The position numbers were made by a program, and so were the translations under genes. The notes under the pieces were generated by a model that did no database searches, was not told the origin of the DNA, and saw only the letters and a program-made list of their open reading frames with translations. A stretch of DNA of 64,000 nucleotides, taken from NCBI GenBank assembly GCA_007376485.1, contig VMGJ01000001.1, forward strand, positions 113,922 to 177,921, read 5' to 3'. The first letter of the stretch is position 1. The number at the start of each line of letters is the position of its first letter. Shown here piece after piece: positions 4,983 to 58,134 of this stretch. Source of the DNA: Parcubacteria group bacterium Licking1014_17. GTDB lineage: Bacteria; Patescibacteriota; Minisyncoccia; 2-02-FULL-40-12; IGHO2-01-FULL-4-A.

Positions 4983-4986
4983 CATC

Positions 4987-23271: not shown

Positions 23272-23312
23272 AACTCTCGGGGGAATATGTCTTTTCATAG
23301 CCGAAGGTTTTA

Positions 23313-23457
23313 ACTCGCTGGTATGTTTTTCGGGACTTCGTTTTCCCCTGCGAGGAAAATTCATCTAATGAAGTCGCTGTCATTTGTCAAGACATAAAGT
23401 CATTGACAAAACCATGCTGACAATGACTTCAACAGCACTCAAAACACACCAGCTCGT
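23313..23457 (+). repeat. Family C repeat copy C1 (145 bp), TIR ACTCGCTGGT(A/G)TGTTTT / AAAACACACCAGCTCGT
   Basis: Shares the internal block GTCATTTGTCAAGACATAAAGTCATTGACAAAACC.TGCTGACAATG.CTTCAACAGCACTC with 49928-50099 and 35964-36021. A family-B-like fragment (GGGGGAATATGTCTTTT) abuts its left side. Confidence 0.55.
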
Positions 23458-23490
23458 AAGCCATTAAAACACACTAGATTTTTAGCGAGT

Positions 23491-28036: not shown

Positions 28037-28050
28037 AGTGCGAGAATTAT

Positions 28051-28323: not shown

Positions 28324-28386
28324 AATTAATATTTATAACTGGATGTATAAATGTTAACATAAAGCAGGAATAAATCAACATTATTA

Positions 28387-28779
28387 ATGGAAACGACTGA
28401 ATCAGGAAAATCAAAAGTAGGGGAGTGGCTGAATAATTATAAATCGGATATTCTGCTTGCCTTGTCTATTATTCTGGTTGTTTTCATCAGCTACCACATA
28501 GGCAAAATCGCCGCCTATCAGGAACAGCAAAAAAAGATAGTCGTAACAAAAACAGGGGACGCGGCGGTCGCGCAAAAACAAGCCTTGCCATCGGCATCTT
28601 CCAAGCCAAGGAGCGAAAACTCCCAAGTTATTGCTTCCAAAAAAAGCGAGAGCAAACTTTACCACTTCCCATGGTGTTCGGGATACGGCAGAATACTGCC
28701 CGCCAATAAAATAGTGTTCGAAACCGAGGCCGCCGCTATCGCCGCCGGTTATACACTTGCGGGAAATTGCACGAGGTGA
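28387..28779 (+). CDS. Membrane-anchored protein with C-terminal Cys/His 'sunset'-type metal-binding domain
   Basis: One TM helix. The C-terminus YHFPWCSGYGRILPANKIVFETEAAAIAAGYTLAGNC matches the YHxPxC...GYxxAxxC pattern (assignment made from memory). Confidence 0.45.
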   Translation: METTESGKSKVGEWLNNYKSDILLALSIILVVFISYHIGKIAAYQEQQKKIVVTKTGDAAVAQKQALPSASSKPRSENSQVIASKKSESKLYHFPWCSGYGRILPANKIVFETEAAAIAAGYTLAGNCTR

Positions 28780-28940
28780 TAGAATTGCACTTGTCTGTCA
28801 CAGCAGTACCCTTTTCTCTGACCCCGCCGTTTTAACCATCACTCCATGGCAAACGGCAAACGGCGGGGTCCCAATATTATTTGATAGGTCTTGATATAAG
28901 TATTGAGATAGAATATAATACATATTGGAAGAGCCTTTGA

Positions 28941-29025
28941 GGGGTTGCTGAGTCTTTTTCAGCGCGAGCGCAAAGTTAAGACTCGGCAACCCCTCGCATT
29001 TTTACCTCCCCCGGGAGGTATATTT
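28941..29025 (+). promoter_or_regulatory. Two consecutive strong hairpins: an 18-bp stem GAGGGGTTGCTGAGTCTT/AAGACTCGGCAACCCCTC, then ACCTCCC-CC-GGGAGGT followed by a T-rich tract
   Basis: Inverted repeats lie between the sunset-domain gene and the 3' end of the nuclease gene. A third hairpin (CCCCGCCGTTT...AAACGGCGGGG) is at 28836-28886. Confidence 0.5.
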
Positions 29026-29059
29026 ATTTAAGATTCAATTATCTATTCTAATATCTATT

Positions 29060-29815
29060 CTAAATGAGTTTAATTTTATTCAGCCAGTAATCATTTTCCC
29101 ATTCCCAGAGGGCTTTCGCGGCAAGAAACGCCCTGATGTCTTTTTCAAACTCTTTTAACTCTTTTAATTCAACATAACCGGTTAGGTCGTCCCATTGGTG
29201 TTCACATTTTCCAGAATTCCGATAGCCATTTTTTATTTTTGCCGTTCCTCCTTTTTCTCTCATAACTGCGCCACAGCCATTCAGACACGGCTTTGCCTGG
29301 TCAATCCTTAAAATCCAGCGGGCAAGCGGCGGCATATCCGGCTCTTCATATAACGCCTCCGAATAGGCGGCCGTCTGGATGCTGTAATCCCTGTATATCG
29401 CCTGGGACGTTTTTATGTCCAAAATGCCGGTCCTGCCGTCAAAATCCGCCAGCACGTCCAGTGTCCCCGCGTAATGATGGTTGCGGCTGATGATTTTTGT
29501 TTCGATCCTTCGCGGAACAATTTCATGTTTATTTTTAAATTTCATAAATTCGCCTATCGCCGGTTCCACGGAGCGGGGGACTTCGATTTTCTTTCCGGCT
29601 AGTATCGCTTCAACGATATCGTGTATTAAGGTGCCTTCTTCGGCGGATTTGTTTTTCTGGCGTTCCGCGGATTCGAAACTGTCGTGGTCGCCGTAGAATT
29701 TGTAGAGAGCGGGTTTTGACTTGATGGACAATATGGAAGTCACTCGGGGATACCACACGCCATTCAAATCATAACCGTTGAATTCTTTGAAATGATTCAG
29801 ATCTTTATAGAACAT
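29060..29815 (-). CDS. PD-(D/E)XK superfamily nuclease (RecB/Cas4-like fold) with C-terminal Cys cluster
   Basis: Motifs GTLIHD, AGTLDVLADFDG..GILDIKTS (D-x(n)-D/E-x-K) and SIQTAAY (QxxxY). The C-terminus has C-x3-C-x22-C-x-H and a W-rich tail. Confidence 0.6.
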   Translation of the reverse strand: MFYKDLNHFKEFNGYDLNGVWYPRVTSILSIKSKPALYKFYGDHDSFESAERQKNKSAEEGTLIHDIVEAILAGKKIEVPRSVEPAIGEFMKFKNKHEIVPRRIETKIISRNHHYAGTLDVLADFDGRTGILDIKTSQAIYRDYSIQTAAYSEALYEEPDMPPLARWILRIDQAKPCLNGCGAVMREKGGTAKIKNGYRNSGKCEHQWDDLTGYVELKELKEFEKDIRAFLAAKALWEWENDYWLNKIKLI

Positions 29816-30046
29816 ACGAATATCTTATCATTAACTATTGCCGATAGGCGATAGGGCTTTTCTCATATAGATTACGTCTGACAATGTAGGTTGTGCGACA
29901 TGATACCTATTCTAATATACGGGTATTAGATATCGAATTACTAACGAATAACGGCGTGGGACAACCTATAAAGCGTTGGGTATCCGATCTAAGTGCTTAT
30001 TAATTCCTACATTCAATACCCTATCCATGAATAAAACCCGGGGTCT

Positions 30047-30198
30047 GGCGAATAACGTCTTATAGCACCGTTGAAATCGCAAATTGCATGGTCGGTTTGC
30101 GATATAATATGCGGCAAGCATCGCAAACCGAATTTGCGATTTCACGGAATGAGCAAACTCGCTGGGTTTGTGAATGATGATAGAAGACGTTATTCACC
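30047..30198 (+). repeat. Family D structured repeat copy D1 (152 bp)
   Basis: Shares GTCTT.TAGCACCGTTGAAA...TTTCACGGAA.GAG...TCGCTGG...GTG.TGAT..AAG with 42871-42976. Hairpin stems differ but remain complementary. Outer inverted repeat GGCGAATAACGTCTT/AAGACGTTATTCACC. Confidence 0.55.
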
Positions 30199-30419
30199 AG
30201 ACCATAGACCGCCACTTCCCTGCCGTTTTTCAAAAAATAAAACACAATATAAATAATTTGTGTCAATAAAGTTATCCACAGACACAACTTTATCAAACTT
30301 GACAAAATGGGTGTTAATATGCGCTGGTGTTTTTGTTAATGTTTGAATTCGAAACGTATTTTAAATAATTCATACTCTCCCCCGCTCCCCCGCAGGGGTG
30401 TCGCTTATTTTCTCGAGCT

Positions 30420-31685: not shown

Positions 31686-33085
31686 TTCTCAAAATTTAGA
31701 GCTTTTTTTACGCGGGCGATTGTTTTTTCTTTACCGATGACTTTTGCCACCTCAACCGGATCCGGCGACGATTCTTTGCCGGTAATTGCCACCCTGAAAG
31801 GCCAGAAAACCAGCCCCTTGCCCCCAATGTTTTCACTTAAACCATTTAGCATATCCCGCAGTCGGGACATATCGTCAACCCCGCTTTTTTCAACAATAAC
31901 CAAAACTTCCCGAAGCGCGTCAAATGACTTCCCGATATCTTCGCCTTTCCATTTCAATAAATTTTTATCAAATTCCGGCTCTTTGAACAGATAATCAAAA
32001 TCTTTTATATCCGACAGTTTGCGCAAGCGGGTTTGGACGAGGGAAACTATGTTTTCTACTGATTTTCTGCCGGACTCTATCCCCTGCCCTTCCATAAAAT
32101 CAAAGAGCCGTTCGGCAAAATTTTGCGGATTCATCTTTTTTATATATTCGCCGTTGAGCCAATCAAGTTTTTGGTAATCAAAAATCGCGCCGGCTTTATG
32201 TATTCTCTCGAGTTCAAATTCCCCCGTCAGTTCCGCGAAAGACAGCACCTCCCTATCCCCTTTCGGCGTAAATCCAAGAAGCCCCAGATAATTTATAATT
32301 GCCTCCGGCAGATAACCCTGCCCGCGGAATTCGCCGACAGAAACCGCGCCGTGGCGCTTGGAAAGTTTCGAGCGGTCTTTATTTAAAATTAAAGGCAGGT
32401 GGACGTATGCAGGGGTGTCAAAACCAAGCGCCTCCTGAATGAGAATATGTTTGGGCGTGTTAGCCAGATGTTCTTCTCCCCTGATTACATGGCTGATTTT
32501 CATTTCGTAATCATCCACGACTACCGACATATGATACAATGGTTCCTCCGGGCTTTTGGCAATACTGAAATCTCCCAAAAGTTTTGAATCAAATTTAATC
32601 TTTCCCCTGACTATGTCGTTGAATATAATCGCGTTGTCGGCGTTTGAATCCACCGCCAAACGGATTACGCCGCTTTGCCCGCTTTCCGGTTTAAGATTTT
32701 TCCTCTTGTGCTCGCAAATATGCCTCGGCGCTTCCTTGGCGGTGTACTGCCGTTCGCTTTCTTGTTCCAGTTCTTCTTCGGTGTGCAGACACCAAAAAGC
32801 TTTCCCGCTTTTCAATAGCTGTTCAATATATTTTTTATAAATGTCAACCCTGTCGCTCTGGCGGTAAAATTCGTCCCAGTTTAAACCCAGCCATTTTAGG
32901 TTATTGATAATATCTTCTTCAAACTCTTTCTTGGAGCGTTCCTTGTCCGTGTCTTCTATCCGCAAGACAAAATCGCCCTTATTTTTCTTGGCGAAAAAAT
33001 AATTAAACAGAGCCGTCCTCGCCAACCCGATGTGCACAAAACCCGTCGGCGAAGGGGCAATTCGCACTCTGACTTTGCTATTCAT
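31682..33085 (-). CDS. gltX: Glutamate--tRNA ligase
   Basis: Class I HIGH-like PSPTGFVHIG, KLSKRHG (KMSKS), and overall GluRS architecture. Confidence 0.85.
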   Translation of the reverse strand: MNSKVRVRIAPSPTGFVHIGLARTALFNYFFAKKNKGDFVLRIEDTDKERSKKEFEEDIINNLKWLGLNWDEFYRQSDRVDIYKKYIEQLLKSGKAFWCLHTEEELEQESERQYTAKEAPRHICEHKRKNLKPESGQSGVIRLAVDSNADNAIIFNDIVRGKIKFDSKLLGDFSIAKSPEEPLYHMSVVVDDYEMKISHVIRGEEHLANTPKHILIQEALGFDTPAYVHLPLILNKDRSKLSKRHGAVSVGEFRGQGYLPEAIINYLGLLGFTPKGDREVLSFAELTGEFELERIHKAGAIFDYQKLDWLNGEYIKKMNPQNFAERLFDFMEGQGIESGRKSVENIVSLVQTRLRKLSDIKDFDYLFKEPEFDKNLLKWKGEDIGKSFDALREVLVIVEKSGVDDMSRLRDMLNGLSENIGGKGLVFWPFRVAITGKESSPDPVEVAKVIGKEKTIARVKKALNFEK

Positions 33086-33200
33086 CCCAAACGAAGTAGC
33101 TATAGCACGATTTAAGTTTTAGCTATGTCTACTGATTAATCATTACACATATAAAAATACTTATAACTTATGAACCCGTTAGGGCTACTTCGTACGGGAT
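33084..33200 (-). mobile_element. Family A element copy A2 (117 bp; reverse complement of A1), ATGA on both flanks
   Basis: Termini ATCCCGTACGAAG...CTTCGTTTGGGAT. The minus-strand ATGA at the left flank is the gltX start codon. Confidence 0.6.
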
Positions 33201-33887: not shown

Positions 33888-35798
33888 ATGCAGATTATTG
33901 ATGTTTTGCCTCTGACCATACTCCCCCGCAACCAGGACCAAATTTTAAATTATTATCACACTGAAAAACTGGAACGCGGGGCGGTGGTTGAGGTTGAACT
34001 GAATAAACGCAAAGTTCGCGGGGTGGTTATCGGTTCAACCGATTTAAAATCGGCTAAACTTGGTTTTAAGAAACATGTTAGCTACGAGCTGAAACATATA
34101 CGCAGGGTAATAAACCCCAAGCCGCAGGTTTTTGAATGGCAGCTGCGCGTTGCCAGTTTTTTGGCTTCTTATTATTACGCTCCGCTGGGTTTATGCGTAA
34201 AATTGGTCCTGCCCCCGTTTTGGGGAGTAAGAGGATATGAAATGGGCGGTGAGAATAAATTACCGGCTGAAAAGACAAAAATCGAAGAAAAACTGGTTAT
34301 CGGCAACGCGTTGGAAAATATTGAAGAACAAATCAAAAAATATATCGGAAAAAATAAGCAGGTGTTTCTGCTCGTCCCGGAAACGTTTTCGGCGGATTAT
34401 TTTATCGAAAGATTTAAAAAATATGAACCGGTTTTTGTTACGGGAGCGGTAAGCAATAAAAAATATTACGAAAACTGGAAAAACATCGCATCGGGTGAAA
34501 CCAAACTTATTGTCGGCACTCGCATCGGGCTTTTTCTGCCATTCGCAAATCTTGGCTTAATTATTATTGACGACGAATCAAACGGCTTATACAAATCCGA
34601 AATGGCGCCTTTATACAATGCGGTTGATTTGGCGGGATATGTTGTGAGGATGAGAAATAGCGATTTGTTACTAACGGGAATCGCGCCGAGGATTGAAACT
34701 CTCAATTCCTTTACTAAAGAAACCGAAAAAAGCATAAATAAAGAAGCGAAAATAATTGATATGACCCGTGAAATTAAGGATAAGAATTTTTCGGTTTTGA
34801 GCCGGGAAATGAAAGGGAATGTCGCCGATATAGCCGCAGAAAAGAAAAAAATGATTTTATTCGTACCCAGAAAGGGCCACGCGAATTTTATTTCCTGCCG
34901 GAATTGCGGCGAAGCAATATCATGCAAAAACTGCTCCGTGCCGCTGATTTATTACAAAGTTCCCGAAGAAAAACTTATCTGCCATCATTGCGATTACAAC
35001 GAAGCGGTGCCCCGGAAGTGTCCCACCTGCGGAAGTTTTGCTTTAAAAGCATACGGCGTCGGCTCGTCAAAAGTCGTTACGGAACTTAATGATTATTTAA
35101 AATATTTCGGGATAAATAATATCTCCGTGATTCAGCTGGATAACGATACCACCGGCTATGACGAAGAAGTTCAGTCAGATCTCGTAAATAAGTTTATTGA
35201 TGCCGACTGCGCTATTCTCGTTGCTACCCAAATGATTTTCAACCATCGCCATTTGATAAAAGTTCCTCTTATTGGCATAATAAACGCGGATACGCTGGCG
35301 CATTTTCCCGATTTCCGCGCTGAAGAAAGGATGTTTTGCCAATTGATGATTTTGCGTGATATGACGGATAAATTGCTCATTCAAACTTATAATCCCGAAA
35401 ATTATGCCATAAAGGCGGCAGTCGGCGGCGACGCGGACGCGTTTTTTAAAAAAGAGCTGGCAGACAGAAAACTGTTTTCCTATCCCCCGTATTCGCGGCT
35501 GACAAAAATTTATCTGCGGCACAGAAACGAGAAGAAACTTGCTTATGGGGCGAAAGTTCTTGCGGATAAACTTGCGGCGGTAATCAAGCAGGACAAAAAA
35601 TTCGCCAATATAAAAATCGATAGTTCTCTGCCCAGCTTTATTTTCAAAGAAAAAGGAATGTTTAAGTGGAACATTATGCTGGAAATCAGCCCTTACGACA
35701 TTTACAACGATAAAGAAGTTACAAATATAAGAAACGAATTATTTAGATATATGCCGGATATTTGGCATGTTGACGCCGATCCGGTGTTGACGATTTAG
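33888..35798 (+). CDS. priA: Primosomal protein N' (PriA) homologue with degenerate Walker A and B motifs
   Basis: Collinear with PriA: LLVPETFSADY..IVGTRIGLFLPFANLGLIIIDDESNGLYKSE aligns with E. coli [44 protein letters not shown]. The CxxC...CxxC zinc-finger region is present. No GSGKT P-loop is recognisable, and the DEEH box reads DDES. Confidence 0.65.
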   Translation: MQIIDVLPLTILPRNQDQILNYYHTEKLERGAVVEVELNKRKVRGVVIGSTDLKSAKLGFKKHVSYELKHIRRVINPKPQVFEWQLRVASFLASYYYAPLGLCVKLVLPPFWGVRGYEMGGENKLPAEKTKIEEKLVIGNALENIEEQIKKYIGKNKQVFLLVPETFSADYFIERFKKYEPVFVTGAVSNKKYYENWKNIASGETKLIVGTRIGLFLPFANLGLIIIDDESNGLYKSEMAPLYNAVDLAGYVVRMRNSDLLLTGIAPRIETLNSFTKETEKSINKEAKIIDMTREIKDKNFSVLSREMKGNVADIAAEKKKMILFVPRKGHANFISCRNCGEAISCKNCSVPLIYYKVPEEKLICHHCDYNEAVPRKCPTCGSFALKAYGVGSSKVVTELNDYLKYFGINNISVIQLDNDTTGYDEEVQSDLVNKFIDADCAILVATQMIFNHRHLIKVPLIGIINADTLAHFPDFRAEERMFCQLMILRDMTDKLLIQTYNPENYAIKAAVGGDADAFFKKELADRKLFSYPPYSRLTKIYLRHRNEKKLAYGAKVLADKLAAVIKQDKKFANIKIDSSLPSFIFKEKGMFKWNIMLEISPYDIYNDKEVTNIRNELFRYMPDIWHVDADPVLTI

Positions 35799-35826
35799 TT
35801 CATTGATGATTGAGGTTAATTAATGA

Positions 35827-35946
35827 ATATATCTTTTCGCAGATGTTCGGGCTTTCCAGCGAAGCCTTCACTTATACCTCGCCAGTTTTCTCCCTTCGGG
35901 GGACCAAGCAAAACTGGCTCGCTGTACTGCTCAAAGACACATTCAT
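35827..35946 (-). repeat. Family B structured repeat copy B6 (reverse orientation)
   Basis: The reverse complement contains TTTGAGCAGTACAGCGAGCCAGTTTTGCTTGGT...AAAACTGGCGAGGTATAAGTGAAGGCTTCGCTGGAAAGCCCGAACATCTGCGAAAAG. Confidence 0.6.
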
Positions 35947-35963
35947 TAATTGCCGGCATAAAG

Positions 35964-36021
35964 CCGTTGATAAAACCGTGCTGGCGGCAATCTCAACAGC
36001 ACTCAAAACACACCAGCTCGT
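35964..36021 (+). repeat. Family C repeat, partial copy C3 (right half only)
   Basis: CCGTTGATAAAACCGTGCTGGCGGCAATCTCAACAGCACTCAAAACACACCAGCTCGT matches the 3' half of C1 and C2. Confidence 0.5.
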
Positions 36022-36041
36022 AGCTTATCATTATTAGATTT

Positions 36042-36488
36042 ATGGATTTAATCAGCGAAAAATCAAAAGTGCTTCATGAACCGTTAGGAACGGTGAAAAA
36101 GATTACTCCGGAAATCAAGAATCTCATAGAAGAAATGAGAAAAATTATGGTGGTGAAAAAAGGAGTGGGACTCGCGGCAAATCAAGTTGGCAAAAATCTC
36201 CGGATTTTCGTGATTGAAAAAAAACTGGCTGATGACAACCAGGTTCCTGACGCTTATATCAATCCAACCATCACCGAGATGTCCAAAGAAGACGACGAAA
36301 TGGAAGAAGGATGCTTGAGTTTGCCGGGACACTGGCAGATGATTAAGCGGGCAAAAAAGGTCTGGATAAAAGCACTGGACGAAAATGGCAATAAAATAAG
36401 ATTCAAAGCCAAGGGCTTTTTGGCTCGGGTTTTACAGCACGAGTATGATCACTTGCGGGGGGTACTGATTAAAGATAAGAGTAAATAA
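36042..36488 (+). CDS. def: Peptide deformylase
   Basis: GVGLAANQVG, EGCLSLPG and HEYDHLRG are the three PDF motifs. Confidence 0.85.
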   Translation: MDLISEKSKVLHEPLGTVKKITPEIKNLIEEMRKIMVVKKGVGLAANQVGKNLRIFVIEKKLADDNQVPDAYINPTITEMSKEDDEMEEGCLSLPGHWQMIKRAKKVWIKALDENGNKIRFKAKGFLARVLQHEYDHLRGVLIKDKSK

Positions 36489-41616: not shown

Positions 41617-41768
41617 GGGAATGTGTCTTTGAGCAGTACAGCGAGCCAGCCCCCACCATCACGTTGGTGGGGGGCTGGCGAGGTATAAGTGAGGGCTTCG
41701 CTCGCCTCGCTGGAGCCTACGGCGAAGCGGGCTGGAAAGCCCGAGTATCTGCGAAAAGACATATTCCC
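41617..41768 (+). repeat. Family B structured repeat copy B1 (with an extra internal hairpin)
   Basis: GGGAATGTGTCTTTGAGCAGTACAGCGAGCCAG...GGCGAGGTATAAGTGAGGGCTTCGC[insert]GGGCTGGAAAGCCCGAGTATCTGCGAAAAGACATATTCCC. Confidence 0.6.
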
Positions 41769-42824: not shown

Positions 42825-42853
42825 CCCGCCTAGTTGCTTAGGCGGGGTTTTCA
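42825..42853 (+). terminator. Rho-independent terminator (CCCGCCTA-gttgc-TAGGCGGG then GTTTTCATTT)
   Basis: An 8-bp GC stem followed by a T-run, right after the 41888-42808 stop. Confidence 0.6.
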
Positions 42854-42870
42854 TTTGAAGATGAACTAAT

Positions 42871-42976
42871 GTCTTTTAGCACCGTTGAAAGAGCGGATTG
42901 CACGGTCCGCCTTGGGCGGAATCCGCTCTTTCACGGAACGAGTCCTGTCGCTGGCGGGACGAGTGGTGATAAAAGG
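42871..42976 (+). repeat. Family D structured repeat copy D2 (106 bp)
   Basis: See D1. The hairpin GAAAGAGCGGATTGC...GGAATCCGCTCTTTC replaces the D1 stem GAAATCGCAAATT/AATTTGCGATTTC with compensatory changes. Confidence 0.55.
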
Positions 42977-43036
42977 CGTTAGCTCATCGCCGGGCTCTAT
43001 TGAAAATTGAGGATTAAGCGGGTATATTATAGGCAT

Positions 43037-43609
43037 ATGCTGAACAAAATTATATTTGTCATAATTGGATTGCTTATGGTCGTGGGTATTTACTATATTT
43101 CCACGAGAAAAGACAGAAATATTTTTGAATCGGGTCCGACGAATACGCCGTATGCGACCAAGACAACCGGCTCAACAATCAGCTTTACGCCTGCCCCAAC
43201 GGGATTGATTTCCGGCACCCCGACGCCCATTTCATCAAAAACCCCAACGCCAACCCAATCCTCCACTCCAACACCGACTTTTCCACGCACACCGACGCCG
43301 ACCTCTACTCCAACTCGCACACCCACACGTACCCCTACACCTACTCCGACACCTCAAACCTATAATGTTTCAATTTATCAAAGAAGATACAACCCAAACC
43401 AGATGACTGTTAATAAAGGCGACAGAATTTATTACAAAAACGACGACACAATAGCCCATTCGGTCACTTCCGACACTGGCGAGTTTGACTCGGGCATTCT
43501 CCAGCCCGGAGACAGATGGACATTAGACACGTCAATTTTAGATCCTAAAGCGTATACTTACTACTCAACGCCGAACCCAAGTACGAGGGGCGGAATACTG
43601 GTCAGATAA
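43037..43609 (+). CDS. Secreted or anchored protein with (Thr-Pro)n linker and C-terminal cupredoxin-like beta-sandwich domain (no obvious Cu ligands)
   Basis: An N-terminal TM helix and a PT-rich linker similar to the LPXTG protein. A roughly 90-aa C-terminal domain (YNVSIYQRRYNPNQMTVNKGDRIYYKNDDTIAHSVTS) follows. Start moved to the ATG at 43037. Confidence 0.4.
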   Translation: MLNKIIFVIIGLLMVVGIYYISTRKDRNIFESGPTNTPYATKTTGSTISFTPAPTGLISGTPTPISSKTPTPTQSSTPTPTFPRTPTPTSTPTRTPTRTPTPTPTPQTYNVSIYQRRYNPNQMTVNKGDRIYYKNDDTIAHSVTSDTGEFDSGILQPGDRWTLDTSILDPKAYTYYSTPNPSTRGGILVR

Positions 43610-44740: not shown

Positions 44741-46639
44741 TTACTTCTTCTCGCCGTGCGGGTCTTGCTCAACTTTCGGCTCCTGCTGGCCGGCTGTCTG
44801 CTGCTGGGTTTTGTATAATATCTCGCCGATTTTCTGGGATGACCGCGAAAGTTCTTCCGTAGCTTTTTTGATATCTTCGACAGAACCGGCATCTTTAATC
44901 TTCTTCAGGTTTTCAATCTTTTCGTTGATATCTTTCTTGGTGTCTTCGGGGATTTTGTCGCCCGCGTCTTTCATCGCTTTTTCGGTCACGTAAATTATCG
45001 ACTCCGCCATATTTTTGGATTCGACTTGCTCTTTCTTTTTGGCGTCTTCGACCGCGAATTTTTCGGCATCCACCGCCATCCGCTTCTTTTCATCATCGCT
45101 AAGGCCGGATGAGCCCTCAATATGGATTGACTGCTGTTTGCCGGTAGCTTTATCTTTGGCGTTGACGTTCAGGATTCCGTTGGCGTCAATATCAAACGAA
45201 ACTTCAATCTGGGGCATGCCACGCGGAGCCGGAGGAATGCCATCAAGGAAAAATTTACCCAAGGTTTTGTTGTCCGGCGACATCGGGCGCTCTCCCTGCA
45301 AAACGTGTATTTCCACGGACGGCTGATTATCCGCTGCCGTTGAAAATGTCTGCGTTTTAGAAGTCGGCACGGTGGTATTTTTTTCTATCATTCTGGTCAT
45401 TACGTTGCCAAGCGTTTCAATGCCCAGAGACAGCGGCGTCACGTCAAGCAATAAAACATCACTGACTTCGTGCTTCATGATTCCACCCTGAATACCGGCA
45501 CCCACGGCAACAACTTCGTCGGGGTTGATATCCTTGTGCGGTTCTTTCCCGAAGAATTTCTTCACCGCCTCAACCATAGCCGGCATTCTCGTCTGTCCGC
45601 CGACAAGCACGACTTCATTTATATCCGAAGTTTTCATTTTAGCTTCCTCAAGCGTCTTTTTGGTCAGTTCGATTGATTTCTCTATGAAATCACGGGTTAA
45701 ATCTTCGAGTTTCGCCCGAGTAAACGTCATTGAAAAATGTTTCGGCCCGCTTGAATCGGCGGTCAGAAACGGAATATTAACCTCCGCTTGGGTCGTGCTC
45801 GAAAGCTCGTGTTTGGCTTTTTCAGCTGCGTCCTTCAAGCGCTGTAATACCATATGGTCTTTACTGACATCTATTCCGCTTTCCTTTCTGAATTCATCAA
45901 CAAAATACTGGATAATTTTCTGGTCAATGTCGTCGCCGCCTAAATGAGTGTCGCCTCCGGTGGCTTTAACCTCAATCGTGTCAGCCGACACTTCAAGAAT
46001 CGAAACGTCGAAAGTTCCGCCGCCGAAGTCATAGACTACTATTTTCTCGTCCTTTTTCTTGTTGAAACCGTAGGCAAGCGCAGCTGCCGTCGGTTCGTTT
46101 ATCACGCGCAGGACTTTTAAACCGGCGACTTCACCGGCGTCTTTTGTCGCCTTCCTCTGCGAATCGTCAAAATAAGCCGGCACCGTAATTATCGCTTCGG
46201 TAATCTTCTCGCCGAGTTTGTCTTCGGCGTCGGTTTTCAACTTTTGTAAGACCATCGCCGAAATTTCCGCCGGCTTGTACCATTTGCCCTGCCCTGAGTT
46301 TATCGAATGGGTCGAAGGGTCGCCCATTTTTATCTCAACGTCGTTATTGCTCCCTTCCCTGATCTCATAGGGCAGCAATTTTTTGTCTTTCTGGACCTCC
46401 GCATCGGAATAACGCCTGCCGATGAGTCTTTTGACCGAATAAATGGTGTCTCTCGGATTTGTCATTGCCTGCCGTTTGGCGGTAATGCCGACATATCTTT
46501 CTCCGCCTTTTCCGATTGCCACCACTGAAGGCGTGGTTCTTGCCCCTTCTTTGTTTTCTATGATTCTCGGCTGGCCGTGTTCAATAATAGCCATCGCCGA
46601 GTTTGTCGTTCCTAAATCGATTCCTAATACTTTTGCCAT
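44741..46639 (-). CDS. dnaK: Molecular chaperone DnaK (Hsp70)
   Basis: [17 protein letters not shown] and other Hsp70 signatures. Confidence 0.9.
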
Positions 46640-46776
46640 TTTTGTTAGCGAGTAAAGTGAGCTTTACAAAAATGAGCACCTCGCTTCAATTTTGCCAAAA
46701 CTCAACTTCACTTTTTTAAATTTATTAATTATTTTCAAGTGAGCCAATATGTATTGAGGACTGTTCGGGTTGAACT

Positions 46777-46900
46777 GGGAATATATCTTTGAGCAGTACA
46801 GCGAGCCAGTTTTGCTTGGTCCGCCTTGGGTGGAAAACTGGCGAGCTATAAGCGAGGGCTTCGCTGGAAAGCCTGAGCATCTGCGAAAAGACATATTCCC
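46777..46900 (+). repeat. Family B structured repeat copy B2
   Basis: GGGAATATATCTTTGAGCAGTACAGCGAGCCAGTTTTGCTTGGTCCGCCTTGGGTGGAAAACTGGCGAGCTATAAGCGAGGGCTTCGCTGGAAAGCCTGAGCATCTGCGAAAAGACATATTCCC. It lies inside the grpE-dnaK intergenic gap. Confidence 0.6.
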
Positions 46901-47055
46901 AGTTAGTTTCAGTCCCGAAAAACATATTGGCAAGTGACTTTACTTTACATTCACGTTAATTTTCTTCGGTTGTCTTACCTCCGACTTTGGCTTTTTGATT
47001 CTACCATATATTTTCAACGTACCTGCGGTCCGTTGAAATGTCATATGGCGAATCA

Positions 47056-47553
47056 TTAATTATTAACGAATTTTACTCTTGCGGGCCTGATTACCTTGCC
47101 GTACATCGTGTAGCCAGCCCTTATTTCCTCAACTTTTTTCGCGTTCTCCGGAATATGCCCCTCGGTTATTTCGTGAATATTGGGGTCAAATTCCTGCTTC
47201 GCCGGAACTCTTTCCACTCCGTATTTTTTAAAAATATCCGATACCTGCTTTTTGGTTTTTTCCAAACCCATGAACCAATTTTTACACCCGTCTTTCACGT
47301 TCTCCGGCGCCTCGCGAATCGAAATATCCAAACTGTCCACGATATCCAGCATATCCAGAATCAATCCTTCGTTCGCGAACTTCAGAAAATCCTCCATCCT
47401 TTTTGCCTCTTCTTTCCGGTAATTAATCATATCGGCCCGGGCACGTTTCCAATTATTAAGATATTCTTCGGCTTTCGCCCGCCATTCGTCTTTTATTTCG
47501 CCGTTGCCACCGGTGTTGTCTTTTAAATCTTTTTCGTCTTTTGGATTATCCAT
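47056..47553 (-). CDS. grpE: Nucleotide exchange factor GrpE
   Basis: Coiled-coil N-terminus and a C-terminal GrpE domain (FDPNIHEAI-like FDPNIHEIT). Confidence 0.85.
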   Translation of the reverse strand: MDNPKDEKDLKDNTGGNGEIKDEWRAKAEEYLNNWKRARADMINYRKEEAKRMEDFLKFANEGLILDMLDIVDSLDISIREAPENVKDGCKNWFMGLEKTKKQVSDIFKKYGVERVPAKQEFDPNIHEITEGHIPENAKKVEEIRAGYTMYGKVIRPARVKFVNN

Positions 47554-48312: not shown

Positions 48313-48339
48313 TTGGCACTCTCAAGTCAAGAGTGCTAA
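48313..48339. promoter_or_regulatory. CIRCE operator (TTGGCACTC-N9-GAGTGCTAA), the HrcA binding site
   Basis: One mismatch to the consensus TTAGCACTC-N9-GAGTGCTAA. Located in the divergent hrcA/cysS promoter region. Confidence 0.8.
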
Positions 48340-49881: not shown

Positions 49882-49927
49882 AAGCTTCTCCAATGGGGCA
49901 TTGTGCTTTTTTACAGTATGGGATTAT

Positions 49928-50099
49928 ACTCGCTGGTGTGTTTTTTGTGACTGGATTTTCGCCAGGGCTTCGACTGAGCTCAGCCGAACGTCCGACGAAA
50001 ATCCATCTGGTGAAGTCATCGTCATTTGTCAAGACATAAAGTCATTGACAAAACCGTGCTGACAATGGCTTCAACAGCACTCAAAACACACCAGCTCGT
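49928..50099 (+). repeat. Family C repeat copy C2 (172 bp)
   Basis: ACTCGCTGGTGTGTTTT...GTCATTTGTCAAGACATAAAGTCATTGACAAAACCGTGCTGACAATGGCTTCAACAGCACTCAAAACACACCAGCTCGT. Confidence 0.55.
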
Positions 50100-50168
50100 T
50101 GGAACCTTTAGTAAGGCGGTAAAAACCCAATACTTGCTTTAAAACACAACGTCTCTCCCCTGCAAGGG

Positions 50169-50302
50169 TGATATGCCTTTGAGCAGTACAGCGAGCCAGT
50201 TTTGCTTGGTCCCCCACCATCACGCTGGTGGGGGAAAACTGGCGAGGTATAAGCGGAGGTTTTCGCTGGAAAAACCGGAGCATCTGCAAAAAGGCATATC
50301 AC
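50169..50302 (+). repeat. Family B structured repeat copy B3
   Basis: GTGATATGCCTTTGAGCAGTACAGCGAGCCAGTTTTGCTTGGTCCCCCACCATCACGCTGGTGGGGGAAAACTGGCGAGGTATAAGCGGAGG...CTGCAAAAAGGCATATCAC. Confidence 0.6.
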
Positions 50303-53233: not shown

Positions 53234-53380
53234 ACACACTCCCTATGTCAATGAGCATAATCGTAACCAAAAAACTGACTCTGATTCTATACTCAAATAT
53301 TTTGCGGGTCAAATGGTGGAATTGAATCGCTCGCCTCGCTGAAGCCTTCGGTGAAGCGAGCAAAATGGGAAAGACACGCT

Positions 53381-53516
53381 AAAAAACTGCTTTTGAGCAG
53401 TACAGCGAGCCAGTTTTGCTTGGTTCCTCACCAGCGCGCTGGTGAGGGAAAACTGGTGAGCTATAAGCGAGGGCTTCGCTGGAAAGCCCGAGCATCTGCG
53501 AAAAGGCAGTTTTTTA
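53381..53516 (+). repeat. Family B structured repeat copy B4
   Basis: AAAAAACTGCTTTTGAGCAGTACAGCGAGCCAGTTTTGCTTGGTTCCTCACCAGCGCGCTGGTGAGGGAAAACTGGTGAGCTATAAGCGAGGGCTTCGCTGGAAAGCCCGAGCATCTGCGAAAAGGCAGTTTTTT. Confidence 0.6.
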
Positions 53517-53654
53517 AATTTCTAGACTCGTAAAACACAATCACCGCCTCTACCCCGAACCACGCAAAAAAGCCCATTTATATGATAACGGCTAAGCAGC
53601 AAAAATGGCTAGATGTAACACAGATTCAATGCCCGCGGGAGCGTGTTACGGGGC

Positions 53655-56398: not shown

Positions 56399-56533
56399 AA
56401 AAAACTGCTTTTGAGCAGTACAGCGAACCAGTTTTGCTTGGTCTCACGCCGGCGCGCCGGTGGGAGAAAACTGGTGAGGTATAAGCGAGAATTTCGCTGG
56501 AAAGTTCAAGCATCTGCGAAAAGGCAGTTTTTT
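56399..56533 (+). repeat. Family B structured repeat copy B5
   Basis: Near-identical outer arms to B4 (AAAAAACTGCTTTTGAGCAG...CTGCGAAAAGGCAGTTTTTT). Central hairpin CTCACGCCGGCGCGCCGGTGGGAG. Confidence 0.6.
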
Positions 56534-56607
56534 AGGCTTTGGTGGATGAATTTTCCTCGCAGGCGAAAATCCAGTCCCGAAAAGCATATTGGCTCGCCTT
56601 AAATCTA

Positions 56608-57939
56608 TCACGCTGTACTCGCCCATTTGCCGGTCTGCCTAGTAAGCAATTCTTTGGCCAACTCCGGCTCGCCCATAATTTCTTTCACTATTTTTTCCAT
56701 CCGCATACTTTGCGAACCTTTAACCAAGATAATATCCCCTTCTTTCATGAGATTCTGAATCTTAATTTTCGCTTCTTCGGTGTCGTGGTAATAAAACACT
56801 TTTGCGGGACCTAAAATGCTTTCAGCCGCTTCGGCTGTGAATCGCGCCGCCTGACCGACTGCGATTACTATGTCGGCACACTCGCCGGCGCGGACGCCAA
56901 TCAGCCGATGAGCTTCGGTTTCGTATTTGCCCAATTCTTTCATATCGCCCAAAACGGCGATTTTCCGGACTTTCTTTTTCCCCAGACGCCGGGCGCTATT
57001 GCCGTATTCATTCAGAACATCCAGCGCCGCTATCGTGGCAATCGGCGAAGCGTTATAAGTATCGTCAATGAGAGTGGTTTCCTTGATGCCTTTCAGCAGT
57101 TTCATTCTGCCTTTTGGAAATTCAATCAAATCTAAGGCCTCCGAAATCTCAACCAGATTCAATCCCAGATGCGCGCCTACGACTACCGCTGTCAATACCC
57201 CATAAAGCTGGTGAGTGCCGAGGAAATTATGGATCCTAACCGGAATGAAATTTTCGCCTTGATGAATTTTAAAAGACAAGCCACCGATATCGCTCCGCGC
57301 GTCATTGGCGAAAAACGAAACTTCGGAAACCCGTACGTCTGCGCCGTCATAGAAACCGAACGTGCTCACGGGACACTTCGCGTATTTTTTCATATCCAGA
57401 ACCGTCTGGTCGTCATAGTTAAGCACCGCTAAGCCATTCACTGGCAGACACCTAATCAGCTCTGATTTTTCCATAATCACGGCTTCGGGACTAGCGTAAT
57501 ATTCAACATGAACCGGCACTTCGCCGACAGCGGTAATAACGCCTATCTGCGGTTTTACGACGTTAACCAGATAAGAAATATCACCCGGCCTATCCGCCCC
57601 GAGTTCCAGAACCAGCATTTTGGGAAAAGTGCCGCCAAGAATTCCGTAGGCTCTTAAAAGCGCCTTAAAAGCCGACCACAGAAAAATTATTTTCTTTAAA
57701 ATAGATTTGGGACCGTCCAGCGGTTTTACGCCCATTACTGTAAGTGGGACCCCGAATTCGTTATTATAATTTTCATCGTTCCTGACGGCGGTGAATTTAT
57801 GGCTTAAAACTCCGTATATCGCCTCCCGAGCCGTCGTCTTGCCGACGGACCCCGTAACGCCGATAATAATCGGCGTATGCCTTTGAATTAGTTTGACTGC
57901 TATGTGGCGCAAAAACCATTTTAAAACCTTTTTAATCAT
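56608..57939 (-). CDS. murF: UDP-N-acetylmuramoyl-tripeptide--D-alanyl-D-alanine ligase
   Basis: IGVTGSVGKTT P-loop and Mur ligase central and C-terminal domains. Located in the dcw cluster. Confidence 0.8.
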   Translation of the reverse strand: MIKKVLKWFLRHIAVKLIQRHTPIIIGVTGSVGKTTAREAIYGVLSHKFTAVRNDENYNNEFGVPLTVMGVKPLDGPKSILKKIIFLWSAFKALLRAYGILGGTFPKMLVLELGADRPGDISYLVNVVKPQIGVITAVGEVPVHVEYYASPEAVIMEKSELIRCLPVNGLAVLNYDDQTVLDMKKYAKCPVSTFGFYDGADVRVSEVSFFANDARSDIGGLSFKIHQGENFIPVRIHNFLGTHQLYGVLTAVVVGAHLGLNLVEISEALDLIEFPKGRMKLLKGIKETTLIDDTYNASPIATIAALDVLNEYGNSARRLGKKKVRKIAVLGDMKELGKYETEAHRLIGVRAGECADIVIAVGQAARFTAEAAESILGPAKVFYYHDTEEAKIKIQNLMKEGDIILVKGSQSMRMEKIVKEIMGEPELAKELLTRQTGKWASTA

Positions 57940-58134
57940 CCCGTACGAAACAAGAAACGCTTCAGTGTTGTCTGCGAATAACGTTTACTCTGTCTTATTA
58001 AATTGCTATACATATTTTTTATAACTATTTCTTTTTAAGCGTTTCCGTATAACATAACTAATTTATGAAAACACGGCACTTCTGTTCAAATACTTACGCT
58101 TTGTTAATCAGGCTTTAGCTGTTTCGTTCGGGAT
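57938..58134 (+). mobile_element. Family A element copy A4 (long form, 197 bp), exactly filling the ftsI-murF gap
   Basis: Termini ATCCCGTACGAAAC...GTTTCGTTCGGGAT. The left-flank minus-strand ATGA is the murF start. The right flank is TCATTA (minus strand TAATGA), where TAA is the ftsI stop codon. Confidence 0.6.

What the first reader, a model, noticed from the sequence alone, without database searches (positions are those of the whole stretch)
46777..46900. Family B: about 125-150-bp structured intergenic repeat with compensatory variation in both the outer stem and the central hairpin
There are six copies: 35827-35946 (reverse), 41617-41768, 46777-46900, 50169-50302, 53381-53516 and 56399-56533. 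All share a conserved core: TTTGAGCAGTACAGCGAGCCAGTTTTGCTTGGT, a central hairpin, AAAACTGG(C/T)GAG(C/G)TATAAGCGAGGGCTTCGCTGGAAAGCC(C/T)GAGCATCTGCGAAAAG. The central hairpin differs in sequence between copies but is always a perfect stem (for example CCCCCACC-atcacgc-TGGTGGGGG; CCTCACC-agcgcgc-TGGTGAGG; CTCACGCCGG-cgcg-CCGGTGGGAG). The outermost 10-12 nt also differ between copies but remain mutually complementary (GGGAATATATCTTT/AAAGACATATTCCC; GTGATATGCCTTT/AAAGGCATATCAC; AAAACTGCTTTT/AAAAGGCAGTTTT). Structure-preserving covariation of this kind indicates selection on a folded RNA or on a hairpin DNA recognised by a protein (as in attC or REP elements) rather than neutral decay of a transposon. 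One copy (B2) sits inside the hrcA-grpE-dnaK-dnaJ operon between grpE and dnaK. The ORF-track 'proteins' at 53351-53533 and 56411-56602 are artefacts of these repeats.
Basis: seen in the sequence. Interest (0 to 1): 0.65.

Follow-up and report, generated by a model that had tools for sequence, protein, structure and literature searches.

The report
Structured hairpin repeat superfamily in Patescibacteria
The six "family B" repeats are real and are one local branch of an uncatalogued family of 130-200-base folded elements that fill the gaps between genes in a group of tiny-genome (CPR) bacteria; their shape is kept by hundreds of matched double mutations, but what they do is unknown.

Summary
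Observation confirmed: six intergenic copies (71-85% identical) share a conserved core. Their stems differ between copies but stay paired: 97.7% of cells paired, and 17 of 46 pairs show double changes.

The host is a Patescibacteria (Paceibacteria) genome with no close relative in the databases. Family B itself was found nowhere else.

Two other repeat families in the window (C, A) have the same architecture:
- a long closing stem;
- a three-way junction;
- a long arm with an invariant 7-nt bulge, UGCWYGG;
- a short arm with tandem G.A pairs and an invariant loop, UCGCUGG.

A pattern taken from relatives recovered 57 loci in 16 MAGs (Yanofskybacteria, Paceibacteria, Minisyncoccia and others). 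A 54-sequence alignment gives 44 of 52 pairs with compensatory changes. A covariance model built without any B sequence hits five of the six B copies (E 1e-9 to 8e-6).

Rfam 15, phage collections and the literature searches returned nothing.

The fold is strand-specific regardless of the direction of neighbouring genes. I found no target-site duplications, no conserved flanking promoter and no transposase. The copy between grpE and dnaK keeps its position and orientation in five genomes and is under purifying selection.

Best reading: a REP/ERIC-like but more elaborate interspersed element, recognised by its structure. Whether the folded molecule is RNA or single-stranded DNA is undecided.

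The parts
46773..46904 (+). Family B copy B3, the flagged copy. It lies between dnaK (44741-46639, -) and grpE (47056-47553, -), antisense to both.
   Evidence: 37.8 bits, E 5.5e-8 against model R1, which was built without B sequences; GrpE confirmed.
46773..46796 (+). B3 closing stem, 5' strand: P1 46773-46790, tandem G.A 46791-46792, P1b GCAG 46793-46796. It pairs with 46881-46904.
   Evidence: Segment table; pair counts (helix 1: 8 of 19 pairs with double changes).
46805..46842 (+). B3 long arm P2: stem CCAGUUU(U) / (A)AAACUGG, the invariant 7-nt bulge UGCUUGG (46813-46819), and the variable GC-rich tip hairpin (46820-46834).
   Evidence: The bulge aligns with the superfamily bulge UUGCAYGGU.
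46852..46878 (+). B3 short arm P3: GC / GA / GGGCUU, loop CGCUGGA, then AAGCCU / GA / GC. It has a tandem G.A internal loop and the invariant UCGCUGG motif.
   Evidence: (helix 4: 5 of 9 pairs with double changes).
35819..35950 (-). Family B copy B1, between priA (33888-35798, +) and def (36042-36488, +). Its 3' end lies 20 nt from the priA stop codon.
   Evidence: 31 bits, E 2.7e-6.
41617..41768 (+). Family B copy B2, in a divergent intergenic region. It lacks the bulge and carries a 31-nt insert (41700-41730) in the P3 loop.
   Evidence: Only 10 bits against R1.
50168..50302 (+). Family B copy B4, between cysS and dnaB, 57 nt from a full family A copy on the other strand.
   Evidence: 43 bits, E 2.9e-9.
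53380..53516 (+). Family B copy B5, between a radical-SAM gene (-) and rplU (-). Its closing stem is A6...U6, which resembles a terminator in both directions.
   Evidence: 44.7 bits, E 1.1e-9.
56399..56533 (+). Family B copy B6, between tRNA-Glu (-) and a Mur ligase gene (-). It is followed by the 3' half of a family A copy.
   Evidence: 35.1 bits, E 2.6e-7.
30042..30203 (+). Family C copy C1. It has the same architecture and belongs to the type that is widespread in other genomes.
   Evidence: 136 bits; this copy was part of the model's training set.
42860..42988 (+). Family C copy C2, with a short P2 tip identical in form to that of B3.
   Evidence: 112.5 bits; this copy was part of the model's training set.
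23299..23468 (-). Family A copy A1, a third window branch of the same superfamily. Coordinates are the model R1 match, which includes about 15 nt of flank at each end.
   Evidence: 52.5 bits, E 3.6e-11; not in the training set.
49914..50110 (-). Family A copy A2, with a 28-nt palindrome (49966-49993) inserted in its P3 loop. Coordinates are the model R1 match, which includes about 15 nt of flank at each end.
   Evidence: (50.3 bits).

Best explanation
What it is (well supported). Family B is the window genome's own branch of a large, uncatalogued superfamily of interspersed intergenic elements in Paceibacteria-type Patescibacteria. Each copy is one long imperfect hairpin of 130-200 nt with these parts:
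- a closing stem of about 19-30 positions whose sequence is free but always paired;
- a three-way junction;
- a long arm with an invariant unpaired bulge (UGCWYGG) and a tip of variable length;
- a short arm with a tandem G.A internal loop and an invariant loop (UCGCUGG).

How it most likely works (inferred). One particular strand, the 'forward' strand, folds while single-stranded. A trans-acting protein that reads shape plus the few invariant unpaired bases recognises the fold. That recognition lets the element be copied into new intergenic sites, or lets it overwrite resident copies. This would explain lineage-specific branches such as A and B, trans-specific subfamilies, and chimeric or nested copies. 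It also places every copy under selection to keep pairing, so stems drift by compensatory changes while the bulge and loops stay fixed.

Three observations make me lean slightly towards single-stranded DNA (at replication or recombination) over RNA as the recognised form:
- the fold asymmetry is the same whichever way the neighbouring genes run;
- copies end exactly at the base of the stem;
- the flanks carry no conserved promoter.

Resident copies usually sit just past stop codons and are retained by the host; the grpE-dnaK copy is an example. Some (B5, B6 and the A/U-extended type) probably double as transcript-end hairpins.
For: Family B is real and covaries.

Same blueprint elsewhere:
- Families C and A in the window share the architecture.
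- 57 loci from 16 MAGs were recovered with a pattern taken from relatives.
- In the 54-sequence alignment, 44 of 52 pairs have double changes, with 570 double-change cells against 161 after shuffling, and 96.6% paired against 35-42% when slid.
- Model R1, built without any A or B sequence, hits five B copies at 31-45 bits and both A copies at 50-52 bits.

Strand specificity:
- The forward strand folds better in 6 of 6 B copies and in 51 of 54 relatives. The mean gain is 7.4 kcal/mol, p 9e-10.
- G.U outnumbers A.C by 77 to 36, and there is an invariant U.G pair.
- The folding advantage is the same in antisense (-7.7, n=30) and sense (-8.6, n=15) gene contexts.

Boundaries: the ends of P1 are sharp, with no target-site duplication and no conserved flank motif.

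Spread within genomes:
- The B and A sequence types are confined to this genome.
- B copies abut truncated A copies, and small palindromes are nested in P3 loops.
- Density is about one copy per 5-6 kb in the window, L020 and L022.

Host retention:
- The grpE-dnaK spacer is occupied in the same orientation in 5 of 5 genomes where that spacer holds a copy.
- The orthologous L020 and L083 copies are about 90% identical in the core and differ in P1 and P3 by compensatory changes. Over the same divergence, third codon positions of dnaK are only 45% identical.
Against: - No partner protein was identified. The ORFs I scanned in the window look like ordinary housekeeping or uncharacterised genes, and none matched a transposase or HUH nuclease family. 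I could not scan whole genomes.
- I caught no clean filled-versus-empty site pair, so mobility is inferred, not shown.
- G.T being favoured over A.C, tandem G.A pairs and G...A tetraloops fit RNA as well as single-stranded DNA.
- The 2:1 G.U:A.C ratio could partly reflect strand-biased mutation.
- Template switching within a palindrome can create matched double changes in DNA without selection.
- The orientation bias (opp/opp 29 against same/same 15; about 14:4 on one chromosomal strand across the syntenic block) is modest. It rests on crude ORF calls.
- 21 specified bases of P2 in alignment A3 are fixed by the search pattern, so their invariance means nothing.
Confidence: 0.45

Rival explanations
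1. A multi-copy family of small structured RNA genes. The forward-strand transcript, released by RNase III-type cleavage at the long closing stem or made from its own start, would be the functional molecule. It could be a protein-binding or scaffold RNA, or the RNA of a retro-copied, SINE-like element. New copies would arise by duplication or retro-copying.
For: - The pattern is RNA-like: covarying stems with invariant unpaired bulge, junction and loop bases.
- G.U is favoured over A.C, there is an invariant U.G pair, and one strand is clearly preferred.
- Optional tip hairpins carry G...A tetraloops such as GUAA, GUGA and GGUA.
- Arms vary in length at helix tips and at the junction, as in many structured RNAs.
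- A resident copy is under purifying selection.
Against: - The flanks carry no conserved promoter and no consistent terminator, and copies end exactly at the stem base.
- In the conserved grpE-dnaK copy, the forward strand has only about 25 nt between it and the dnaK start codon on the opposite strand. That leaves no room for a promoter.
- In more than half of the copies the upstream gene points the other way, so read-through cannot supply forward transcripts.
- The G.U:A.C ratio of about 2:1 seems low to me for a selected RNA (my own impression of curated RNA alignments, not tested here).
- A perfect helix of about 25 bp seems to me unusual for a stable bacterial RNA (again my own impression).
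Confidence: 0.3
2. A cis-acting transcript element. The hairpin, in either orientation, would act in the mRNAs of flanking genes as a terminator, an intercistronic processing site or a 3'-end stabiliser, as has been shown for REP and ERIC sequences in enterobacteria.
For: - Copies are strictly intergenic. Their 3' ends usually lie 10-30 nt from a stop codon.
- B5, B6 and the A/U-extended type have an A-run and a U-run flanking the stem in both directions.
- The copy inside the hrcA-grpE-dnaK-dnaJ operon is positionally conserved in five genomes.
Against: - The conserved asymmetric features and the forward-strand folding advantage do not depend on the direction of flanking genes. In the commonest arrangement the mRNA would carry the weaker reverse complement.
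- A plain terminator or stabiliser would not need an invariant bulge, an invariant loop or a three-way junction.
- Canonical small terminators exist in the same genome, for example 42825-42846 just upstream of C2.

This is probably a secondary role, not the primary constraint.
Confidence: 0.15
3. An ordinary miniature inverted-repeat transposable element (MITE) that decays neutrally, with its apparent covariation produced by palindrome-correcting template switching during replication.
For: - It is multi-copy, small, non-coding and intergenic, with terminal inverted repeats.
- Chimeric and nested copies occur.
- Assemblies break at copies.
Against: - The terminal repeat sequence is not conserved between copies in one genome; only the pairing is.
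- There are no target-site duplications.
- No parent IS or transposase was seen.
- Non-paired features (bulge, G.A pairs, U.G pair) are strictly maintained and are never 'corrected'.
- The family spans several candidate lineages, with core identity far above synonymous-site identity.
Confidence: 0.05

Closest known systems
ERIC / IRU (enterobacterial repetitive intergenic consensus, about 127 bp imperfect palindromes)
   Same: Both are small, non-coding, interspersed intergenic elements that form a long imperfect hairpin. Both are present in many copies and occur in either orientation relative to genes. From my own knowledge (not checked in the paper library), ERIC copies are also reported to keep their secondary structure through compensatory changes and to affect mRNA stability.
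   Different: There is no sequence similarity. The host phylum is different. The element here has a three-way junction with an invariant bulge and loop and a very long closing stem of free sequence. Its density is far higher, about one copy per 5-6 kb of a genome that is probably around 1 Mb.
REP/BIME elements and their RAYT (Y1 HUH) transposases
   Same: Lifestyle: very abundant intergenic hairpins, recognised as structure plus a few fixed bases, retained and exapted by the host, with no target-site duplication. This is the model for the mechanism I propose.
   Different: REPs are simple hairpins of 20-40 nt with a conserved GTAG-type motif, often clustered, and with a RAYT gene flanked by REPs. 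Here the unit is 130-200 nt with three helices, copies are not clustered in BIME-like arrays, and no RAYT gene was seen.
Correia elements (CREE/NEMIS) of Neisseria and other bacterial MITEs (RUP, BOX, RPE, Nezha)
   Same: Size class, copy number, intergenic location, hairpin-forming ends, and nested or chimeric copies.
   Different: Correia elements have conserved 26-nt terminal repeats, a TA duplication and an IHF site. Here the terminal stems are conserved in pairing only, no duplication is found, and the conserved parts are internal unpaired motifs.
Integron attC sites
   Same: Both are recognised, or proposed to be recognised, as a folded single strand. In both the sequence is free but the structure is conserved, and the fold is strand-specific.
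   Different: The elements have no R''/L''/L'/R' core sites (RYYYAAC / GTTRRRY) and no extrahelical-base pattern. No integrase is present. The genes between copies are housekeeping genes in conserved synteny, not cassettes. Copies are not all in one orientation.
Multi-copy orphan RNA motifs in Rfam, such as Chloroflexi-1 (recalled from memory, not checked here)
   Same: Both are candidate structured RNAs supported by covariation, occur in several copies per genome, and have no known function.
   Different: No Rfam 15 family matches at E up to 1 in the window region and up to 0.1 in the relatives' loci. The density is much higher, and the long perfect closing stem and the lack of promoters are atypical for such motifs.

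Membership tests
Classical MITE | Terminal inverted repeats with a sequence conserved among copies, matching a parent IS | tested here: not met
   The ends are complementary within each copy but differ between copies, even within one genome. No parent IS was seen in the window or the loci.
Classical MITE | Target-site duplications flanking each copy | tested here: not met
   Flanks of 42 copies and of the six B copies were inspected. I saw no consistent direct repeat.
Classical MITE | Small, non-coding, multi-copy | tested here: met
   Copies are 130-200 nt and number 10 full copies in 64 kb. Translations have no protein relatives.
REP/BIME (RAYT-associated) | Simple hairpin unit of 20-40 nt with a conserved tetranucleotide, often in clustered arrays | tested here: not met
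   The unit is a three-helix structure of 130-200 nt, and copies are dispersed singly.
REP/BIME (RAYT-associated) | A cognate RAYT (Y1 HUH) gene in the genome, usually flanked by REPs | not testable with these tools
   None in the window ORFs I scanned. Whole genomes could not be scanned.
Integron attC | R''-L''...L'-R' core sites (RYYYAAC / GTTRRRY) with extrahelical bases | tested here: not met
   The alignments show no such cores. The conserved motifs are UGCWYGG and UCGCUGG.
Integron attC | Arrays of promoterless cassettes next to an integrase, with all sites in one orientation | tested here: not met
   The genes between copies are housekeeping genes in conserved synteny (dnaK, dnaB, cysS, priA and others). 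Orientation is mixed and no integrase is present.
IS200/IS605-derived PATE | Subterminal hairpins at each end, no terminal inverted repeats, and insertion 3' of a fixed 4-5-nt target | tested here: not met
   The whole element is one hairpin closed by its two ends. The last 4-5 nt of the 5' flanks have no consensus. The absence of target-site duplication is shared.
Any Rfam 15 RNA family | A covariance-model match at the gathering score or at a low E-value | tested here: not met
   The window at gathering threshold gave only two tRNAs. The window stretch 35.7-56.7 kb at E up to 1 gave nothing relevant. Seven relatives' loci at E up to 0.1 gave nothing relevant.
Intrinsic (Rho-independent) terminator | A compact GC-rich hairpin followed at once by a U-tract | tested here: inconclusive
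   B5, B6 and the A/U-extended type have U-runs after the stem in both directions. B1-B4 and most sharp-ended copies do not. The hairpin is also far larger than a terminator.
Paceibacteria three-way-junction hairpin superfamily (defined here, model R1) | Closing stem, P2 with the UGCWYGG bulge, P3 with tandem G.A and the UCGCUGG loop, and a significant match to R1 | tested here: met
   B5, B4, B3, B6 and B1 score 44.7, 43, 37.8, 35.1 and 31 bits (E 1e-9 to 8e-6) against a model built without B sequences. The alignments place the bulge and loop on the consensus. B2 scores only 10 bits, because it lacks the bulge and carries an insert.

The most novel reading that the evidence does not exclude
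These elements are a new class of functional structured nucleic acid specific to a large CPR clade, working with a dedicated partner protein that has not yet been identified. They would be either a trans-acting RNA or RNP component, or a single-stranded-DNA recognition module. At about one copy per 5-6 kb, this would make a REP-like genome-wide system of an unknown kind in bacteria with otherwise minimal genomes.
Probability: 0.3. Interest if true: 0.85.

Novelty: new variant of a known kind. Interest (0 to 1): 0.7.

Why it matters
Patescibacteria (CPR) have very small, gene-dense genomes and are generally thought to carry little repetitive DNA. Here a single structured element occupies about one intergenic region in five, across several candidate lineages. 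Its covariation support is as strong as that of well-established RNA families, yet it is absent from Rfam and I found no description of it.

If it is an RNA, it is a new abundant ncRNA class in a poorly understood third of bacterial diversity. If it is a single-stranded-DNA element, it implies an unrecognised structure-specific enzyme and a REP-like layer of genome organisation in CPR.

In practical terms:
- these repeats break assemblies and spawn false ORFs in CPR MAGs;
- the covariance model gives a direct handle for annotating them;
- the model also allows phylogenetic profiling to find the partner protein.

Tried and rejected
**Searches for family B elsewhere**
- Exact 22-mer of family B in one genome per species (185,579 species): 0 hits.
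- 17-mer plus ATCTGC in JGI metagenomes: 10 hits, all a chance match inside a conserved gene of about 60% GC.
- 17-mer in viral contigs: 9 chance matches.
- Superfamily pattern in viral contigs: 0 hits.
- Consensus against GenBank phages: no match.
- All six reading frames of family B, joined into one protein query to catch miscalled ORFs in 5.8 billion proteins: no hit.
- Exact look-up of the window's DnaK: not on record, so the source genome is not in the collections.

**Known families and literature**
- Rfam: nothing.
- Five literature searches (CPR / Parcubacteria / Yanofskybacteria with repeat, MITE, structured RNA, covariation): nothing relevant. TIGR-Tas arrays came up, but they are tandem arrays and unrelated.

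**Signals around the copies**
- Promoter and terminator scan of 40-57 kb: counts no higher than in shuffles, and nothing consistent next to the copies.
- Internal promoter idea: TTGCAT and TATAAT lie only 13 nt apart, and the B copies and C2 lack the TATAAT. Rejected as a general feature.
- CIRCE idea: the TAGCACC...GGTGATA arms resemble half-sites, but the real CIRCE sits upstream of hrcA at 48313-48339. Rejected.

**Attempts to find an empty site**
- L020 against L021: the differences are runs of N at element positions, that is, assembly gaps.
- L066 against L068: the region differs in gene content, so there is no clean empty site. The shared site holds different subfamilies.

**Other ideas**
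- Insertion into pre-existing palindromes as the source of the variable outer stem: rejected, because the outer stems of different copies are themselves related and co-vary.
- GC skew as a guide to replication direction: it tracks gene orientation in the window and cannot be used.
- attC: rejected on its defining features.
Full report
**1.

The 22-mer at the 5' end of the core occurs six times in the window, five exact and one with one mismatch, against none expected. The 3' core occurs five times. With the full closing stem, the copies are:

| Copy | Coordinates | Strand |
|---|---|---|
| B1 | 35819-35950 | - |
| B2 | 41617-41768 | + |
| B3 | 46773-46904 | + |
| B4 | 50168-50302 | + |
| B5 | 53380-53516 | + |
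| B6 | 56399-56533 | + |

- The copies are 70-85% identical and all lie between genes.
- Each folds far better than its shuffles, with z from -2.8 to -8.3.
- RNAalifold on the six copies gives 46 pairs, 17 of them with double changes.
- 97.7% of cells are standard pairs, against 88.7% after shuffling and 33-53% when partners are slid. No shuffle out of 500 reaches the observed covariation score.
- The third, short hairpin also covaries (GGGCUU/AAGCCC, GAAUUU/AAGUUC, GGUUUU/AAAACC).
The central hairpins are nearly, not always, perfect. The grpE-dnaK copy is the one at 46777-46900, antisense to the operon; GrpE was confirmed.

**2. Host**

The genes are housekeeping genes. They include priA, def, fmt, efp, dnaJ, dnaK, grpE, hrcA, cysS, dnaB, recR, rplU, mur and pbp genes, ribosomal proteins and glycosyltransferases. 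None of the ORFs I scanned matched a transposase or other mobile-element family.

- DnaK is at most 80-81% identical to anything in 5.8 billion proteins. The best hits are Paceibacterota, Minisyncoccia and Yanofskybacteria MAGs.
- The exact protein is not on record.
- So the window comes from a Patescibacteria (CPR) genome without a close relative in the collections.

**3. Family B itself is found nowhere else**

Exact-match scans of species-representative genomes, metagenomes and viral contigs gave either nothing or chance matches. A six-frame translation query, designed to catch miscalled ORFs, found no protein. Rfam 15 has no match.

**4. Family B is one branch of something much larger**

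Two other repeats in the window have quite different stem sequences but the same blueprint. These are family C: C1 at 30042-30203 and C2 at 42860-42988. The shared blueprint is:
- a variable closing stem;
- a G.A-containing inner stem;
- a long arm with a 7-nt 5' bulge, GCWYGGU;
- a variable tip (the C2 tip is CCGCC-UUG-GGCGG; B3 has CCGCC-UUG-GGUGG);
- a short arm with a CGAG...CGAG tandem G.A loop and the loop UCGCUGG.

I then fetched the syntenic dnaK regions of the two nearest relatives, L020 and L022. Gene order there is conserved. A simple descriptor (bulge, then CGCUGG within 110 nt) found the same kind of element in their intergenic regions, including the grpE-dnaK spacer.

A 21-base pattern taken from those relatives recovered 57 loci in the species-representative genomes. 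They come from 16 MAGs labelled Yanofskybacteria (five), Paceibacteria, Paceibacterota, Minisyncoccia, Patescibacteria group, Buchananbacteria and 'Saccharibacteria', with up to about ten loci from a single genome.

**5. Covariation in the superfamily is overwhelming**

The alignment holds 52 relatives plus C1 and C2 (A3).

- It gives 52 consensus pairs, 44 with compensatory changes.
- 96.6% of cells are paired, against 75% after shuffling and 35-42% when slid.
- There are 570 double-change cells against 161 after shuffling.
- Caveat: 21 specified bases of P2 were fixed by the search pattern, so their invariance is uninformative. The covariation lies in P1, the P2 base, the part of P2b outside the pattern, and P3.
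- No Rfam family matches these loci.
- Five literature searches found no description of the element.

**6. Family B belongs to the superfamily**

Model R1 was built from A3, without any A or B sequence. With filters off it gives these hits in the window:

| Copy | Bits | E-value |
|---|---|---|
| B5 | 44.7 | 3e-9 |
| B4 | 43.0 | 8e-9 |
| B3 | 37.8 | 2e-7 |
| B6 | 35.1 | 8e-7 |
| B1 | 31.0 | 8e-6 |

- The alignments put the B bulge UUGCUUGGU on the consensus UUGCAUGGU, and the UCGCUGG loop on its consensus.
- B2 scores only 10 bits, because it has lost the bulge and carries an insert.
- The same search shows that the window's 'family A' repeats are members too: 23299-23468 (-) at 52.5 bits and 49914-50110 (-) at 50.3 bits.
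- The window therefore holds ten full copies from three branches, about one per 6 kb.
- L020 and L022 have four copies each in 22 kb.
- Three more distant syntenic loci (L081, L082, L084) have none. L083 has a single significant copy (81.6 bits; a second match of 19.8 bits, E 0.007, is marginal).

**7. Anatomy and boundaries**

- In the relatives, the closing stem takes one of two forms. It either runs 23-26 bp and then stops sharply, or runs 15 bp, passes a GCGA/GAGC tandem-G.A loop and continues as an A/U-rich extension.
- In family B the closing stem is 19-24 positions long.
- The flanks show no target-site duplication, no common 5' tetranucleotide and no conserved promoter-like or terminator-like motif.
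- Optional extra hairpins occur at the P2 tip (often with G...A tetraloops), in the junction and in the P3 loop.

**8. The fold is strand-specific and independent of neighbouring genes**

- The forward strand folds better than its complement in all six B copies and both C copies.
- The same holds in 51 of 54 sequences of A3, with a mean gain of 7.4 kcal/mol, p 9e-10.
- G.U cells outnumber A.C cells by 77 to 36, besides an invariant U.G pair. In family B the count is 14 to 3.
- The tandem G.A pairs would become pyrimidine mismatches on the other strand.
- The forward advantage is the same whether flanking genes run against the element (-7.7 kcal/mol, n=30) or with it (-8.6, n=15).
- The primary constraint is therefore not on read-through mRNA.

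**9. Position relative to genes**

I made a rough census with simple ORF calls.

| Arrangement | Copies |
|---|---|
| Between co-directional genes, antisense to them | 29 |
| Between co-directional genes, sense | 15 |
| Between convergent genes | 10 |
| Between divergent genes | 6 |

The element's 3' end is typically 10-30 nt from the stop codon of a convergent gene. This rules out a leader or riboswitch-type element. It fits either a placement preference for gene ends or retention there.

**10. Evidence for spread and for retention**

Spread:
- The A and B sequence types are private to this genome yet occupy at least eight sites.
- B copies abut truncated A copies: a 5' half of A next to B1, B3 followed by the 3' end of A, and B6 followed by a 3' half of A. 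A full A2 lies 57 nt from B4.
- A 28-nt palindrome sits in the P3 loop of window A2 (49966-49993). It also sits, in the opposite orientation, in the P3 loop of an element in an unrelated MAG, L072.
- Subfamilies are shared across genomes, and each genome holds several.

Retention:
- The grpE-dnaK spacer holds a copy, always antisense to dnaK, in the window, L020, L022, L071 and L083.
- The L020 and L083 copies are clearly orthologous. Their cores are about 90% identical, and their P1 and P3 stems differ by compensatory changes.
- Over the same divergence, dnaK is 74% identical in DNA and only 45% identical at third positions of conserved codons.
- That indicates purifying selection on a resident copy, or continual conversion of it.

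**11. Interpretation**

A neutral MITE is excluded by three results: the terminal sequences are not conserved, there are no duplications, and the non-paired features are strictly maintained. attC and REP membership fail on their defining features. A cis-acting mRNA hairpin cannot be the main constraint (point 8), although B5, B6 and the A/U-extended type look like two-way terminators and may serve as such.

The choice is between two readings:
- a forward-strand RNA;
- a forward-strand DNA hairpin read by a structure-specific protein.

I lean slightly towards the DNA reading, for these reasons:
- the flanks carry no conserved promoter;
- the ends are exact at the stem base;
- there is no room for a promoter at the conserved grpE-dnaK copy;
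- the G.U:A.C ratio is only 2:1;
- copies lean towards one chromosomal strand in the syntenic block (about 14 to 4).

None of this is decisive, and no partner protein was found. The identity claim (a real family, structure-constrained, a member of a widespread uncatalogued superfamily) I hold at about 0.9. The mechanism I hold at about 0.45.

**12. Limits**

- E-values from R1 are rough because calibration was shortened.
- The ORF calls in the census are heuristic.
- The loci were chosen because they contain a copy, so they cannot give unbiased densities. The exceptions are the dnaK-anchored loci L020, L022 and L081-L084.
- Whole genomes could not be scanned, and no expression data were available.

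Noticed in passing
window 9954-10070, 33084-33200, 15049-15243, 57938-58134: A second, unrelated repeat family with sequence-conserved terminal inverted repeats (ATCCCGTACGAA ... TTCGTTCGGGAT). There are two size classes, about 117 and about 195 nt, and both fold as long hairpins. Model R1 does not detect it. It looks more like a classical MITE than family B does.
   Followed up: partly
window 23299-23468 (-), 49914-50110 (-); fragments 35957-36022, 46910-46931, 56545-56593: 'Family A' repeats belong to the same superfamily (50-52 bits against R1). Truncated A pieces directly abut B1, B3 and B6, and a full A copy lies 57 nt from B4. This suggests nested insertion or recombination between branches.
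   Followed up: partly
window 49966-49993; L072 about 4812-5019: The same 28-nt palindrome, GGCTTCGACTGAGCTCAGCCGAAYGTCC, is inserted in the P3 loop (UCG^CUGG) of a window element and of an element in an unrelated MAG, in opposite orientations. The P3 loop appears to be a hotspot for small hairpin inserts.
   Followed up: no
window 41700-41730 and 53329-53361: The 31-nt insert in the P3 loop of B2 is related to a free-standing hairpin-like sequence 19 nt upstream of B5. This may be another small mobile palindrome.
   Followed up: no
window 23281-23295: A solitary B-type closing-stem arm (GGGAATATGTCTTTT) lies just outside the 3' end of family A copy A1. It may be the remnant of a B copy.
   Followed up: no
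window 48313-48339: A CIRCE operator (TTGGCACTC-N9-GAGTGCTAA, one mismatch from the consensus) lies upstream of hrcA. The hrcA-grpE-dnaK-dnaJ operon therefore has its usual HrcA control, separate from the repeat.
   Followed up: yes
window 1827-2042 and 43220-43363: Pro/Thr-rich low-complexity coding repeats (CCNACN periodicity) occur in two ORFs, 1194-2750 and 43007-43609. These are probably extracellular linker regions.
   Followed up: no
window about 28000-30000: Cumulative GC skew peaks here, and gene orientation switches from + to -. This could mark a replication terminus or simply reflect gene strand. After 33 kb the skew follows gene orientation.
   Followed up: partly
L021 15261-15360 and 16860-16959, compared with L020 17705-17877 and 19375-19716: Two scaffolds of the same population (99.9% identical) differ only by runs of N. 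One run coincides with an element copy in L020 (19424-19622), so the repeats break assemblies.
   Followed up: yes
L043 3234-3482 (-), L080 32-288 (+): Some relatives carry an extra arm of about 75 nt (CGGTTGARCCAACTGCTTGGCTCAACC...) between P2 and P3, which turns the three-way junction into a four-way junction.
   Followed up: no
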